DNA from: a virus
DNA length: 64,000 nucleotides
Reading direction: 5' to 3' (one strand)
Virus record (IMG/VR): IMGVR_UViG_3300036790_000219
Coordinates: 32,001-96,000 of that record
Shown: positions 31,611-34,859 of the stretch, piece by piece
Numbering within the stretch: position 1 is the stretch's first letter
Layout: each line of letters starts with the position of its first letter
Translations under genes and position numbers: made by a program
The notes under the pieces: model-generated
Database searches by the model: none
What the model saw: the letters and a program-made list of their open reading frames with translations, nothing else
Told to the model about the DNA's origin: nothing

Positions 31611-32612
31611 ATGCCTAAGCACACGATCTACGGCCTCTACGATCCGAGCGATCGGAAAAAGGAGGTTCGCTATGTTGGAGCAACTAAGTTCACGCCTGAG
31701 CAACGTTTAACTGATCACATCTCCGGTGCAGAAGCCGCAGACACTTATAAGAAGAAGTGGATCAGAAAACTGCTCAGGCAGAACTTGGTTCCTGCCATCC
31801 TAGTTCTTGAAGTCACAACGACGAGACACTGGAAGAAGCGGGAGAAGTATTGGATCGCCTACCTTCGTTCTAAAGGTAGCCGCCTAACGAACTCAACGGA
31901 AGGCGGGGAGGGCCTGGTCAACCCAACGAAAAATGTTCGGGCCAGGATTGCCAAGAAGGTTTCTGAGCTTCTTATTGGAAACCAACGCGCTACAGGAATG
32001 AGTCACACAAAAGAAGCCTGTCTGGCTATTTCGAAGGGATTACGGGAATCCAAGAAGTTTCAGCGGTCCCAGCGAAAATGGCGAGGGAAGGCGCGTTATA
32101 CTCCAACCGAGGAATCTAAGCTCAAAATCTCCTTGGCTAACTTGGGAAGACCCCGTCCGGATGTACGAGCTCTTGCTCTTCGCTTAAACAAACGCCGGAA
32201 AGGTTCGGTCTGGGTAACAGATGGAAAGAGCAATAAGCAGATTCTAAAGGGAACCCCAATTCCTAAGGGATTTGTTTGTGGTCGGCTTATGACTTGGCAA
32301 GAACCTGGTAAGGGGCCGACGAAAGGGCGACGGTACATAACTAATGGAGTTGAAAACCAGATGATCGAAATTTCGGCTCCAATCCCCGAGGGCTTTAAGT
32401 TTGGACAAACACGTCATAATCCGCGTCGGGATACAAAGGTAGGTTTAAGAAAATTGAGTGAAACAGTACGGCAACTTAAACTAGGTTTTCGTTTAATCAC
32501 TGATGGTGCGGTTCGCCGTCAGCTTCCAAGGGATCAGGTACTTCCAGCGGGTTGGGTGTTTGTTAAAAAGAACACTCTAAAGTCGCTTACAACCTCGGTC
32601 TCGTTAGATTGA
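31611..32612 (+). CDS. GIY-YIG homing endonuclease with repeated (W/Y/L)(I/V)T(N/D)G modules
   Basis: TIYGLYDP...VRYVGAT...R...REKYWI...LTNSTEGGEG. Confidence 0.88.
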   Translation: MPKHTIYGLYDPSDRKKEVRYVGATKFTPEQRLTDHISGAEAADTYKKKWIRKLLRQNLVPAILVLEVTTTRHWKKREKYWIAYLRSKGSRLTNSTEGGEGLVNPTKNVRARIAKKVSELLIGNQRATGMSHTKEACLAISKGLRESKKFQRSQRKWRGKARYTPTEESKLKISLANLGRPRPDVRALALRLNKRRKGSVWVTDGKSNKQILKGTPIPKGFVCGRLMTWQEPGKGPTKGRRYITNGVENQMIEISAPIPEGFKFGQTRHNPRRDTKVGLRKLSETVRQLKLGFRLITDGAVRRQLPRDQVLPAGWVFVKKNTLKSLTTSVSLD

Positions 32613-32650: not shown

Positions 32651-33118
32651 ATGGCTGAACGTGTAATCCCAAAGACCGGCAGAGATATGTCGGGAGTTGC
32701 TCCGGCAAAACAGGAGCTCTTGAACCAGGACGACGACAAGGAACTTGAGTCGAAGGCTAAGAAGGTTGCCGACGACGAGGAAGACGAAGTTGACGAAGCC
32801 GAATCTCCGGAGTATTCCCGCGAGACTATTGGCCCACGCGTCGGTGAGGAGGTGGGTAAGGCCAACTCCGCGGAAGGCGCTGCCGCGCTCGAACAGAAGC
32901 TCGACACTGAAGATGTCGTTCCTCTGATTTTCTCAAGGGCGGTCAACCTTCAGGACAAGGGGTTGATGCATCATTGGGCACCTGGTATTCATATGGTCCC
33001 AATTTCCCTTGCCGGCACCGACAAGAAGACCATGCATTGGTGGTTGCGCCACAATGGTGTCCGCCGCGCGGGCAAACCGTTGCCCAATCCGAATGCTGAG
33101 GAAAAGGTGCAGGAGTAA
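32651..33118 (+). CDS. Acidic protein with C-terminal HWWLR domain
   Basis: Follows the capsid gene; paralogous to 1871..2014. Confidence 0.7.
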   Translation: MAERVIPKTGRDMSGVAPAKQELLNQDDDKELESKAKKVADDEEDEVDEAESPEYSRETIGPRVGEEVGKANSAEGAAALEQKLDTEDVVPLIFSRAVNLQDKGLMHHWAPGIHMVPISLAGTDKKTMHWWLRHNGVRRAGKPLPNPNAEEKVQE

Positions 33119-33121
33119 AGA

Positions 33122-33304
33122 ATGTCCGAGCGTACGCCAAGCTTCTTGATTCCGTGCGCGCTCGAAGTCGATGAGGACGGGGTCATTGTGAAAGTACTGC
33201 CCGACGTGGTCTGGCTTTCACAAACCCGTGTCCGTCTTGAAACTCACGGTGACACAACGGACTTCCGGCTAGAACCTAAAGGAAAGGAAATGTCCAATGG
33301 TTGA
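33122..33304 (+). CDS. Small hypothetical protein
   Basis: ORF with RBS; overlaps the next start. Confidence 0.5.
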   Translation: MSERTPSFLIPCALEVDEDGVIVKVLPDVVWLSQTRVRLETHGDTTDFRLEPKGKEMSNG

Positions 33305-33620
33305 TTCTAACGACGCTCCTGTATCCGAGGCCCAGCGCAAAGCAATGGGCGCAGCGATGGGTGGCCACTCTACCCTAGGGATCCCCAAGGCTGCAGGGAA
33401 AGAATTTATCGACAAGGACCCCGGTGGGAAGCTGCCGGAGAAGTCCAAGGATGCTACCTCACCGAAGCCGGGCTCGGGACCGATGTCACCAAATGGTCCG
33501 CAAGGAAGTGAGGAGGGTCTGCCAAAAACTACCCGTTCCTTCGGAGCAGGAGATGGGGTTGGGAAAGCGATGAGTCTCGATGAAATAAAAAGCCAGGCCA
33601 AAAGAATCGGCCGTTATTAA
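33297..33620 (+). CDS. Small head-associated-type protein
   Basis: DAPVSEAQRKAMGAAMGGHSTLGIPKAAGKEF motif, which I recall from N-termini of some DUF2213-family head proteins; ends SLDEIKSQAKRIGRY. Confidence 0.7.
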   Translation: MVDSNDAPVSEAQRKAMGAAMGGHSTLGIPKAAGKEFIDKDPGGKLPEKSKDATSPKPGSGPMSPNGPQGSEEGLPKTTRSFGAGDGVGKAMSLDEIKSQAKRIGRY

Positions 33621-33685
33621 ACCATACCGAACCGAACCGGACGCTACCCCAACAAACCACAACGTACCAAACCCCAACTTACCGC
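33621..33685 (-). ncRNA. Array B: 13 phased 5-nt GGY-NN units (candidate guide RNA)
   Basis: + strand accAT accGA accGA accGG acgCT accCC aacAA accAC aacGT accAA accCC aacTT accGC. Confidence 0.85.
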
Positions 33686-33714
33686 ACAAAAAGTAGGAAA
33701 TTTTCAAAACTAAA

Positions 33715-33784
33715 GCCACACCTCACCGCACCGCAACTAAACATTCCTGACCGTACCCGATCCGACCAGAACCCACCACACCTA
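33715..33784 (-). ncRNA. Array A: 14 phased 5-nt GGY-NN units (candidate guide RNA)
   Basis: + strand gccAC accTC accGC accGC aacTA aacAT tccTG accGT accCG atcCG accAG aacCC accAC accTA. Confidence 0.85.
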
Positions 33785-34414
33785 AGTTTTGAATTTAGTT
33801 GTCTGAAATCGTCCATATGTAGGGCGGAAGTCTCCTAGAGCACAGAAACGTCCAGCATTGGTTAGAGCGGAATTCAGGATATCCGGTGAGATATACTCGG
33901 GAAGAAGTACTTGGATATCAAAATCCAATTCCCAGCCAGTTTTGAGCGCTGGGCGGACGCGAGTAATAGCGTTTCGCTGAATGACAGCACGACAGCGGTG
34001 TTCGTAGTGCCAATTTTTGGTTCCAACACTTGCGAGATCAGTTAATACCACAATGCCAGCTTTGAAAAGATCCATGGCTGATTTACGGGGTGATCGTGGA
34101 TCTTGTAGGAACTTTGCTGCGTAGACGAGTGCCATACGTAGCTGCGTTCCTGGTACACAAAGAAAACCTGCGTCGTTTCGATAGACGTAGGACTCAAGGT
34201 CATCGGTCTTTTTTTTTTTTTTTTTTGCTTTCGAGCCTTTTGCGGCATTCGCACTTTCAGCGACCGATTCACAGTTATATCGATGATATAGGTAATCGGC
34301 AACGCCACTGATAGTAACAGAAGCGACGTAAGGTTCAATAAGTTTGTTGGCCGCACCGTTGGTAGGAACTCCCCCACCAATAGATATGACTTCTGCAGTT
34401 ACTCTTTTAGCCAT
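33782..34414 (-). CDS. Stand-alone Cas7/RAMP-like protein (Vipr-like)
   Basis: N-terminal strand VTISGVADYLYH, LCVPGTQLRMALVYAAK, C-terminal Gly loop AGRFCALGDFRPTYGRF; the only clear antisense gene in the late operon. Confidence 0.75.
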   Translation of the reverse strand: MAKRVTAEVISIGGGVPTNGAANKLIEPYVASVTISGVADYLYHRYNCESVAESANAAKGSKAKKKKKKTDDLESYVYRNDAGFLCVPGTQLRMALVYAAKFLQDPRSPRKSAMDLFKAGIVVLTDLASVGTKNWHYEHRCRAVIQRNAITRVRPALKTGWELDFDIQVLLPEYISPDILNSALTNAGRFCALGDFRPTYGRFQTTKFKT

Positions 34415-34575
34415 AGTAAGGTCTCCTTCGCGCCCAGCCAGTAAAGCCCGGAACGCGGTTCAGGGGTCACATTTCTGCGACACCAGACGCGAAGGAGGTT
34501 CGTGTAGGGTGCCGCGTTCTAAAGCCGGTTTACTGCCCAGCTACTAAGAACATACTGGGCATTGAATTTTATCAA
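34415..34575 (-). promoter_or_regulatory. Extended -10 promoter and structured 5' leader with anti-SD
   Basis: TGaTAAAAT on - at 34575-34567; leader helices, and 10-bp complementarity between 34497-34488 and the RBS region 34432-34423. Confidence 0.6.
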
Positions 34576-34592
34576 AATGGAGAAAGATCAAC

Positions 34593-34859
34593 ATGGTCGA
34601 AAAACCCAACTCCCAACCAGGTATCCCGCCGACGTCTGAACCGTCCAGCATGCGGCTACAACAGCCAGGTGAGCCAGCGACGGTCGTGTCGGGAATGCCA
34701 GGTATTGGACAGCCCATCAAGCAGGGACCGTTGTATCGTGATGGCGCTCCGCCTAGCAAGTTCAAGTTGCCGGAATCGGTTACTCCGGCTGAGATCAAGG
34801 ATCAGAGCTACCGTTATGGGGGTGGTAGATCAGCAGGGCGAAAGAGCACCGAACCATGA
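34593..34859 (+). CDS. Pro-rich small protein ending in a scaffold-like helix
   Basis: VTPAEIKDQSYRYGGG resembles the ends of 33297..33620 and of the scaffold. Confidence 0.6.
   Translation: MVEKPNSQPGIPPTSEPSSMRLQQPGEPATVVSGMPGIGQPIKQGPLYRDGAPPSKFKLPESVTPAEIKDQSYRYGGGRSAGRKSTEP

What the first reader, a model, noticed from the sequence alone, without database searches (positions are those of the whole stretch)
33507..33685. Array B's variable dinucleotides spell a gapped match to the adjacent gene, skipping every wobble base
Seen: array B NN on + reads AT GA GA GG CT CC AA AC GT AA CC TT GC. The codons of 33297..33620 at 33507-33545 are agt gag gag ggt ctg cca aaa act acc cgt tcc ttc gga. 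Units 2-8 match codon positions 1-2 of seven consecutive codons (14/14 nt), and 19/26 match overall. My rough estimate is under 1 percent chance anywhere in the window, and far lower within 120 nt of the array. Inference: the guide reads DNA as NN-skip-NN and is insensitive to synonymous change. Its full target, about (I/M)(D/E)(D/E)GLP(K/N)TV(K/N)P(F/L)A, would be the homologous allele in a competing relative. The resident copy may have escaped by divergence in its 3' half, or the partial match may autoregulate.
Basis: partly seen in the sequence, partly recalled or inferred. Interest (0 to 1): 0.92.

Follow-up and report, generated by a model that had tools for sequence, protein, structure and literature searches.

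The report
VIPR guide RNA beside rival-allele target
The five-base repeat tract is a guide RNA of a VIPR system (a phage-borne, CRISPR-like DNA silencer described in 2026 preprints), and its variable letters spell, two bases per codon, the version of the neighbouring head-module gene seen in a related sequence rather than the phage's own diverged copy, so this is a well-supported new example of a known system and not a new mechanism.

Summary
Array B is 13 ACCNN units on + (33621-33685). Its NN series matches 33507-33544 under an NN-skip-NN rule: 19/26, with 7 consecutive units, and every skipped base is a wobble base. That is the best run in the whole 120-kb genome.

It is the "1-nt skip" code of VIPR systems (bioRxiv 10.64898/2026.04.26.720920, .720927 and 2026.10.15.759431).

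The 210-aa gene next to the arrays is a Vipr:
- It has a Cas7-like fold (Z 8-9.8).
- Profile comparison with the experimentally studied SUSP1 Vipr gives 98% probability.
- The GGY-contacting residues are conserved.
- Homologues in most of 80 IMG/VR loci carry same-strand GGY-NN arrays.

Metagenomic homologue P0132 reads SEEGLPKTVKPFA, which implies 23-25/26 matches whatever the codon choice. The resident copy reads SEEGLPKTTRSFG (19/26, below the published 80% cut-off).

A syntenic relative lacks the 972-bp cassette at this junction.

I could not obtain P0132's DNA, and I found no target for array A.

This scan has already noted VIPR on at least 17 other genomes, several with the same "guide beside altered resident gene" pattern.

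Verdict: a new member of a known kind, of modest interest.

The parts
33782..34414 (-). vipr gene: 210-aa solo RAMP (Cas7-like) protein
   Evidence: ORF. It has no Pfam family and matches phrog_4652. There are 6208 homologues at E<=0.001. The AF2 model (mean pLDDT 70) gives 16 PDB matches at Z>=8, the top rows being chains of CRISPR effector complexes, mostly Cas7-type. hhalign against SUSP1 Vipr gives probability 98.1%, E 9e-14. H44, R154, D195, F196 and R197 align with the GGY-contact residues H17, R138, D177, W178 and R179 of SUSP1 Vipr.
33716..33785 (-). Array A (vrRNA-A repeat tract): 14 YNNGG units starting inside the vipr stop codon. RNA NN series: TA GT GG CT CG CG AC CA AT TA GC GC GA GT.
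   Evidence: Parsed. No target was found in the window, the genome, the fetched loci or IMG/VR.
33686..33715 (-). U-rich linker, or 3' tail of vrRNA-A, between the two tracts
   Evidence: Sequence. It has no stable fold.
33621..33685 (-). Array B (vrRNA-B repeat tract): 13 pentamers, ACCNN on + and NNGGU on the RNA. Four units have a degenerate scaffold (GTT x3, CGT).
33586..33620 (-). 3' tail of vrRNA-B: a 6-bp hairpin (33612-33596) followed by a U run. It looks like a terminator and lies antisense to the last codons of the 107-aa gene.
   Evidence: Terminator-like site. The fold is -9.6 kcal/mol, which is not significant against shuffles.
33507..33544 (+). Resident partial match to vrRNA-B under the NNx rule: 19/26, units 2-8 perfect, skip base = wobble. 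Codons read SEEGLPKTTRSFG.
33297..33620 (+). 107-aa head-module gene. The C-terminal half of P0132, the family member that the guide spells, aligns with it.
   Evidence: ORF; homologues. It has no Pfam family, only a weak DUF3008-like lead, and a low-confidence model.
34415..34592 (-). Leader and presumed promoter region of the cassette, up to the start of the next head-operon gene (34593)
   Evidence: The boundary is inferred from synteny. In relative L084 the 107-aa and 88-aa gene homologues abut, with overlapping TGATG. The simple scan found no sigma-70 consensus promoter.

Best explanation
The 972-bp stretch at 33621-34592 is a minimal VIPR cassette (vipr plus two vrRNAs, no accessory gene). 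It is inserted in reverse orientation into the phage head operon.

By analogy with the characterised SUSP1 system (inferred here, shown there), the cassette is transcribed from the - strand. Vipr protomers coat each vrRNA, one per pentamer, bury the GGY bases and present the NN pairs. The filament binds double-stranded DNA whose sequence is complementary to NN, skips one base, pairs with the next NN, and so on. That blocks transcription.

vrRNA-B is aimed at the C-terminal region of the neighbouring 107-aa gene in the allelic form ...EEGLPKTVKPFA..., seen in homologue P0132; P0173 (TEEGLPKATKPFA) is a second, weaker match. Because the skipped base is the wobble base, synonymous changes do not help the rival.

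The resident allele (...EEGLPKTTRSFG...) pairs only over units 1-8, the 3' part of the guide. At 73% it falls under the 80% level the authors used to call natural targets, so the phage probably spares itself.

Shown here: the repeat anatomy, the match and its statistics, the Vipr homology, the existence of the matching allele, and the empty site in a relative.

Inferred: expression, RNP formation, silencing, and self-sparing.
For: - Anatomy: arrays of 14 and 13 pentamers lie directly 3' of the gene on the same strand.
- Protein: Cas7/RAMP fold, Z 8-9.8. Profile match to SUSP1 Vipr at 98.1% probability, E 9e-14. The GGY-contact residues are invariant or nearly invariant in the family.
- Family context: I called 194 non-redundant GGY-NN arrays in the 80 IMG/VR loci of homologues, and almost all are on the vipr strand.
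- Published rule: 1-nt skip, skip = wobble, either DNA strand, no PAM, targets in competing phages.
- Self match: 19/26 with a run of 7, the best in the genome. A run this long is rare in shuffles.
- Non-self target: P0132 implies 23-25/26 and P0173 implies 21-22/26. Other homologues reach at most 21.
- Controls for the non-self target: 0/150 permuted guides exceed 20, 0/300 guides with random units 9-13 reach 25, and only the true order among all 120 permutations of units 9-13 reaches 25.
- Resident versus P0132: 44/56 identical. Four of the 12 differences fall in the last five codons of the footprint.
- Cassette insertion: syntenic relative L084 (capsid 85% identical) has the two flanking genes abutting with no cassette.
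Against: - I never saw the DNA of P0132 or P0173. The match is inferred from peptides, although codon positions 1-2 are fixed for 11 of the 13 residues.
- P0132 is known only from short Logan/ENA contigs of unknown context. I do not know that it belongs to a competing phage of the same host or that it lacks the cassette.
- There is no expression data.
- The two vrRNA tails are not conserved with each other and show no significant structure, unlike the pseudoknot tail of the SUSP1 clade.
- There is no vap gene.
- The vipr gene carries an A18 run that may compromise expression.
- By total identity over 12 units (18/24) the self match is within what 13 of 128 arrays of relatives reach against their own flanks. 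The run statistic was chosen after the fact.
- The clustering of resident-versus-P0132 differences in the footprint is post hoc, and the upstream flank also varies.
Confidence: 0.8

Rival explanations
1. Autoregulation. The 7-8 matched units let the Vipr-vrRNA-B filament bind the phage's own 107-aa gene weakly. This would throttle + strand read-through from the head operon into the convergently oriented cassette, or tune late-gene dosage. The P0132 match would then be a by-product of homology.
For: A contiguous run of 7 perfect units lies next to the guide's 3' tail, 77 nt from the array. The cassette and the head operon are convergent.
Against: The published surveys found no self hits at 80% or more, and the authors treat lower self scores as autoimmunity avoidance. 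Units 9-13 match a non-self allele perfectly, which autoregulation does not explain. None of 194 arrays of relatives shows a comparable run against its own flanks.
Confidence: 0.1
2. Coincidence. The locus is a VIPR system, but vrRNA-B has some other target and the neighbouring match is chance.
For: The total of 19/26 is reached by 7.5% of permuted guides somewhere in the window. 18/24 partial self matches are not rare among relatives. No DNA-level target was found in IMG/VR, JGI metagenomes or GTDB genomes.
Against: A run of 7 or more occurs in under 1% of shuffles window-wide and in 0.1% within +-3 kb. Independently, the five non-matching units are all satisfied by a natural homologue at the orthologous position.
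Confidence: 0.05
3. Not a guide at all. The periodic GGU triplets would be binding sites for a multimeric RNA-binding protein (as TRAP binds GAG/UAG repeats with 2-3 nt spacers), and the NN spacers would be unconstrained filler.
For: This was my first reading of the anatomy: a constant triplet, a free dinucleotide, and 13-14 units.
Against: The adjacent protein is a RAMP homologous to an experimentally shown RNA-guided DNA binder. The NN series carries information that matches a homologous coding sequence in codon phase.
Confidence: 0.02

Closest known systems
VIPR (Viral Interference Programmable Repeat) systems: Vipr + vrRNA (+ vap). The type II system of Escherichia phage SUSP1 is the characterised example. 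bioRxiv 10.64898/2026.04.26.720920 and 10.64898/2026.04.26.720927.
   Same: - A ~20 kDa solo RAMP protein with conserved GGY-contact residues.
- vrRNAs of 13-14 YNNGG units on the vipr strand.
- An NNx target register with skip = wobble.
- A phage-encoded system whose inferred target lies in a related sequence seen in metagenomes.
- A self match below 80%.
   Different: - Only about 28% identity to SUSP1 Vipr over 151 aligned columns, so it belongs to another clade. I could not assign a type because the supplementary data are not held.
- No vap gene.
- vrRNA-A starts inside the vipr stop codon.
- The tails are short, U-rich, not conserved between the two vrRNAs and without a detectable pseudoknot.
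- The cassette sits antisense inside a head operon.
- The vipr gene carries an A18 / extra-Lys4 insertion.
Self versus non-self discrimination by vrRNAs of SUSP1-family phages (bioRxiv 10.64898/2026.10.15.759431, section on solo vrRNAs)
   Same: The guide scores lower on the carrier's own homologous sequence than on the sequence it best matches. The authors read this as avoiding autoimmunity while hitting relatives.
   Different: There the targets are vipr genes and vrRNA loci of rivals, and the carriers are often vipr-null. Here the target is a structural-module gene immediately next to a complete cassette, so the guide and the diverged resident allele are about 100 bp apart.
Class 1 CRISPR-Cas backbone proteins (Cas7: Csm3, Cmr4, Csf2, type VII Cas7)
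   Same: The fold (best PDB matches, Z 8-9.8), and a filament-on-guide logic in which a thumb periodically interrupts pairing.
   Different: - No CRISPR array and no other cas genes.
- A 5-nt guide period with 2 pairing bases, rather than a 6-nt period with 5 pairing bases.
- No acquisition machinery.

Membership tests
VIPR system | Vipr protein with RAMP architecture (RRM core, G-loop, thumb) | tested here: met
   The AF2 model (mean pLDDT 70, pTM 0.66) gives 16 PDB matches at Z>=8, the top rows being chains of CRISPR effector complexes, mostly Cas7-type: Z 9.8 to type VII Cas7 8yhd_A, with Cmr4, Csm3 and Csf2 close behind. The C-terminal GDFRPTYGRF is the G-loop. The low-confidence stretch at 139-151 sits where the thumb is expected.
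VIPR system | Sequence homology to an experimentally characterised Vipr (SUSP1, NC_028808.2 28474-29061) | tested here: met
   hhalign of the 22-sequence family profile against SUSP1 Vipr: probability 98.1%, E 9.2e-14, 151 columns. Single-sequence tblastn is only marginal (E 0.07).
VIPR system | Residues that read the GGY scaffold (SUSP1 H17, R138, D177, W178, R179) | tested here: met
   They align to H44, R154, D195, F196 and R197. H44, R154 and R197 are invariant, and D195 and F196 at least 90% conserved, in 22 homologues. Residue roles are taken from the cryo-EM preprint. K33 of SUSP1 aligns to A57, in a poorly aligned region.
VIPR system | vrRNA: 9-16 tandem YNNGG units with conserved GGY and hypervariable NN, on the vipr strand, flanking vipr | tested here: met
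   There are 14 and 13 units directly 3' of vipr, and 9 of the 13 units in B have a strict GGT. The same architecture recurs in most of the 80 homologous loci.
VIPR system | Natural target obeying the 1-nt skip rule at >=80% NN match, skip base on the wobble position, outside the carrier genome | tested here: met
   P0132 at the orthologous position implies 23-25/26 (88-96%) whatever the codon choice, and P0173 implies 21-22/26. Caveat: this is inferred from protein sequence, and I did not see the DNA.
VIPR system | No self target at >=80% NN match | tested here: met
   The best self hit for B is 19/26 = 73%, and for A 19/28 = 68%, in the whole 120-kb genome.
VIPR system | Conserved structured 3' tail capping each vrRNA (a pseudoknot in the SUSP1 clade) | tested here: inconclusive
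   The tails of A and B differ. A has no stable fold. B has a 6-bp terminator-like hairpin with z = -0.84. The paper describes the pseudoknot only for the SUSP1 clade.
VIPR system | Accessory vap gene in an operon with vipr (typical but not defining: the discovery paper lists stand-alone vipr genes) | tested here: not met
   The cassette holds no second gene. The only other - strand ORF (34544-34798) overlaps the conserved + strand 88-aa head gene and has no family. The relative DSL-LC04 does have an overlapping downstream gene.
VIPR system | vrRNAs expressed, co-purifying with Vipr, and directing dsDNA binding or repression | not testable with these tools
This needs wet-lab assays.
CRISPR-Cas (class 1) | CRISPR array of 24-40 nt direct repeats with spacers, plus further cas genes next to the Cas7 | tested here: not met
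   There is no such repeat in the window. The neighbours are head-module genes.
TRAP-like triplet-repeat RNA-binding system | A ring-forming small beta-sandwich protein binding (G/U)AG triplets with uninformative spacers | tested here: not met
   The protein has a RAMP fold. The spacers carry codon-phased information.

The most novel reading that the evidence does not exclude
The cassette behaves as a selfish 'weapon plus antidote' unit. The guide against the common allele of the 107-aa gene sits about 100 bp from the diverged, poorly matched resident allele. Recombination in mixed infections would then rarely separate them, and the pair would spread through a phage population by silencing the head operon of cassette-free relatives. 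That would be an RNA-guided analogue of the marker exclusion carried out by phage homing endonucleases. Notes from this scan suggest the same layout recurs in several unrelated phages.
Probability: 0.35. Interest if true: 0.5.

Novelty: new member of a known kind. Interest (0 to 1): 0.3.

Why it matters
The gapped, wobble-skipping guide code was a real surprise when it was published in 2026. This locus adds nothing to the mechanism.

Its value is as a clean natural example outside the Enterobacteriaceae/Pseudomonas systems studied so far:
- a minimal, vap-less cassette dropped into a head operon;
- a predicted target that is the non-self allele of the gene next door;
- a resident allele changed at just the codons that decide the match.

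That supports the view that VIPR mediates competition between close phage relatives. It also suggests tight linkage of guide and immune allele, which could be tested in phage crosses.

Tried and rejected
**DNA of the target allele**
- Exact NNx pattern scans for array B found nothing. I tried all 13 units, units 2-11, units 2-13 with Y for Leu, and units 3-13, in IMG/VR, JGI metagenome contigs and GTDB genome contigs.
- The search for related loci with the target-gene family returned only three loci, and none carries the P0132-type site.
- tblastn of P0132 against GenBank phages hit only its unrelated N-terminal module.
- No cultured relative of the head module exists in GenBank phages.

**Array A**
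- No convincing match in the window, the genome, the 85 fetched loci, the 288 fetched proteins or IMG/VR.

**Other checks**
- Rfam has no family over 33000-34600.
- Pfam and PHROGs say nothing about the 107-aa gene.
- The atlas gave only a weak DUF3008 lead.
- I tested whether partial self matches next to arrays are general in relatives. There was no run of 7 or more in 194 arrays, and only a marginal excess at 18/24 or better (13 against 6.4 expected). This is inconclusive.

**Readings rejected**
- My first reading, TRAP-like triplet binding sites, was dropped once the fold and the literature were in.
- A G-quadruplex reading of the (GGYNN)n tract was considered but not pursued.
- CRISPR membership was rejected because there is no array and no other cas gene.

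Full report
**1. The observation**

The + strand at 33621-33685 is thirteen in-phase pentamers: ACCAT ACCGA ACCGA ACCGG ACGCT ACCCC AACAA ACCAC AACGT ACCAA ACCCC AACTT ACCGC. On the - strand these read NNGGU. Nine units have a strict GGT scaffold, three have GTT and one has CGT.

A second tract of 14 units (33716-33785 in YNNGG register) begins inside the stop codon of the - strand ORF 33782-34414. A 30-nt U-rich linker separates it from the first tract.

I laid the NN series of array B as NN-x-NN on both strands of the window. The best placement is + 33507: 19 of 26 bases, with units 2-8 perfect. The next best run anywhere is 4 units. It is also the best placement in the whole 120,057-bp contig, of which the window is 32001-96000. 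Position 33507 is the first base of a codon of ORF 33297-33620, so every skipped base is a wobble base.

**2. Is it more than chance?**

- Permuting the order of the 13 dinucleotides gives a run of 7 or more somewhere in the window in 3 of 400 trials. Shuffling single bases gives it in 1 of 400.
- The total score of 19 alone is not special: 30 of 400 permutations reach it.
- Other spacings and unphysical orientations of the real guide reach runs of up to 6.
- As an empirical background I parsed 194 non-redundant arrays from 80 homologous loci and scanned each against its own +-3 kb. None reached a run of 7, and only 2 of 1940 shuffles did.
- By total identity over 12 units, the window's 18/24 lies within what 13 of 128 arrays of relatives reach (6.4 expected).

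So the statistic matters, and the run statistic was chosen after the fact. The self match alone would therefore leave room for doubt. The decisive evidence is in section 5.

**3. What the locus is**

The 210-aa protein has no Pfam family and matches only PHROG 4652, of unknown function. It has 6208 metagenomic homologues at E<=0.001. The family is strongly conserved, with 54 invariant positions in 22 sequences of 59-82% identity to the window's protein.

An AlphaFold2 model (mean pLDDT 70) was searched against 48,161 PDB representatives. It gave 16 matches at Z>=8, and the top rows are chains of CRISPR effector complexes, mostly Cas7-type RAMPs: type VII Cas7, Cmr4, Csm3, Csf2 and Csc2, at Z up to 9.8.

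In the 80 IMG/VR loci that encode homologues, long GGY-NN pentamer tracts flank the gene upstream, downstream or both. Of 206 arrays called there, all but two lie on the gene's own strand.

**4. What is already known**

A literature search found three 2026 preprints that describe exactly this kind of system.

- The discovery paper (10.64898/2026.04.26.720920) reports VIPR systems. A ~20 kDa Vipr RAMP protein works with ~100-nt vrRNAs made of 9-16 YNNGG repeats plus a 3' tail. The NN dinucleotides pair with double-stranded DNA while one target base is skipped per unit.
- In that paper the skipped base usually falls on the codon wobble position. Targets lie on either strand without a PAM, and mostly in competing phages and satellites. 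Natural targets are called at 80% NN match or more, and no self hits reach that level.
- The structural paper (10.64898/2026.04.26.720927) shows one protomer per repeat and names the residues that hold G1, G2 and Y3.
- The third paper (10.64898/2026.10.15.759431) shows the role of VIPR in phage-satellite competition. It notes that some guides score lower on the carrier's own sequence than on rivals' sequences.

I fetched the SUSP1 locus. Its vipr (195 aa), vap1 and flanking vrRNAs are as described.

Profile comparison of the window's family with SUSP1 Vipr gives 98.1% probability, E 9e-14, over 151 columns. SUSP1's H17, R138, D177, W178 and R179 align with H44, R154, D195, F196 and R197, which are invariant or nearly invariant in the family.

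The locus is therefore a VIPR system of a clade distant from SUSP1. It has no vap gene, because the only other - strand ORF overlaps a conserved + strand head gene. Its tails differ between the two vrRNAs and show no significant structure. B's tail ends in a terminator-like hairpin at 33612-33596, antisense to the last codons of the 107-aa gene.

**5. The target**

Among 51 homologues of the 107-aa protein, P0132 reads SEEGLPKTVKPFA at the orthologous position. P0132 is 94 aa, from Logan/ENA, and seen on six contigs.

NN positions are codon positions 1-2, so they are fixed by the residue for every amino acid except Leu, Ser and Arg. This peptide therefore implies 23-25 of 26 matches (88-96%) whatever the codon choice.

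- A second homologue, P0173 (JGI, TEEGLPKATKPFA), implies 21-22/26.
- The family consensus, TSEGLPKTVEPF, implies about 19-21/26.
- The resident allele, SEEGLPKTTRSFG, gives 19/26.

Controls on the same set of 168 proteins:
- permuted guides never exceed 20 (150 trials);
- with units 1-8 kept and units 9-13 randomised, 0 of 300 guides reach 25 (maximum 23);
- of all 120 orderings of units 9-13, only the true one reaches 25.

So the part of the guide that does not match the resident gene is fully satisfied by a natural relative. Homology over units 1-8 cannot explain that.

Resident and P0132 are 44/56 identical over the shared C-terminal half. Four of the twelve differences (V>T, K>R, P>S and an inserted Gly) fall in the last five codons of the footprint. 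This is consistent with escape of the resident allele, or with the guide having settled on a discriminating patch. It is a post hoc observation, and the upstream flank also varies.

**6. Context**

Locus L084 is a syntenic relative, with a capsid 85% identical and the same order of the 155-aa, 107-aa, 88-aa, DUF4054, 146-aa and 211-aa genes. There the 107-aa and 88-aa homologues overlap as TGATG, with nothing between them.

In the window 972 bp separate these two genes, and that stretch is the cassette. In L083 a different 327-bp insert occupies the same junction.

None of the 80 loci fetched through Vipr has a homologue of the 107-aa gene within 3 kb. The cassette therefore sits in different places in different phages.

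**7. How it most likely works**

Transcription from the - strand yields vipr mRNA and two vrRNAs. Vipr coats each vrRNA. The vrRNA-B filament binds the P0132-type site in the DNA of a co-infecting or resident relative and blocks transcription of its head operon. The carrier's own site pairs over only 7-8 units next to the tail and is probably spared.

The mechanistic steps are taken from the SUSP1 work, not shown here. Rivals are autoregulation through the partial self match (about 0.1), coincidence (about 0.05) and a non-guide triplet-binding RNA (about 0.02).

**8. Limits**

- I could not see the DNA of P0132 or P0173, or their genomic context.
- There is no expression evidence.
- I found no target for array A.
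- I could not assign a VIPR type, because the supplementary data are not held.

**9. Verdict**

The mechanism was published months earlier, however.

This scan has also already logged VIPR loci in at least 17 other genomes. Four of those notes describe the same 'guide beside an altered resident gene' layout (these are unchecked notes).

The locus is a new member of a known kind. The only part that may go beyond the preprints is the tight physical linkage of guide and diverged resident allele.

Noticed in passing
window 34209-34226: An A18 run (T18 on +) inside vipr encodes four extra lysines (GSKAKKKKKKTDD). All 21 aligned homologues have GSKA-KKTDD. The insertion is in frame here, but a run of this length is prone to slippage or could be an assembly artefact. 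It lies in the region aligned with the SKR-KKTD motif of SUSP1 Vipr.
   Followed up: partly
window 31611-32612: A GIY-YIG domain ORF (Pfam E 2.7e-5) sits between the major capsid gene and the 155-aa gene. In the syntenic relative L084, tblastn found no match to this ORF, and the capsid match ends at 825 with the 155-aa match starting at 1030. It is probably a free-standing homing endonuclease insertion.
   Followed up: partly
L083 839-1164 and L084 1880-1887: The junction between the 107-aa and 88-aa head genes looks like an insertion hotspot. It is empty in L084 (overlapping TGATG), holds a different 327-bp insert in L083, and holds the 972-bp VIPR cassette in the window.
   Followed up: partly
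P0132 versus window 33297-33620: The C-terminal module of the 107-aa family (ASGPMS...EGLPKT...MSLDEIK..KRIGRY) is joined to two unrelated N-terminal modules. One is SEAQRKAMGAA... (DUF3008-like lead), as in the window. The other is GEKIEKNMEKEYG...FYASKNKG, as in P0132, and that module alone has hundreds of small phage homologues.
   Followed up: partly
window 33716-33785: Array A (14 units, the first overlapping the vipr stop codon) has no detectable target. The best self score is 19/28, and I found nothing in IMG/VR with 10- or 13-unit exact patterns.
   Followed up: yes
L004 3118-3625; L010, L013, L078: Relatives of this Vipr clade carry very long uninterrupted GGC-NN tracts, up to 61 units in one phase. 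This resembles the 'staggered arrays' mentioned in the discovery preprint, whereas the window has two discrete 13-14 unit guides.
   Followed up: no
L001-L080 arrays versus their own flanks: There is a marginal excess of partial self matches at 18/24 NN or better within +-3 kb (13 observed against 6.4 expected from shuffles). It is not convincing, but worth a proper test with whole genomes.
   Followed up: partly
L082 (Phage DSL-LC04, OR003939.1 22429-23046): The only GenBank phage with a close homologue (53% identity) annotates its vipr as a 'helix-turn-helix transcriptional regulator'. A 148-aa gene overlaps its stop codon and could be a vap.
   Followed up: no
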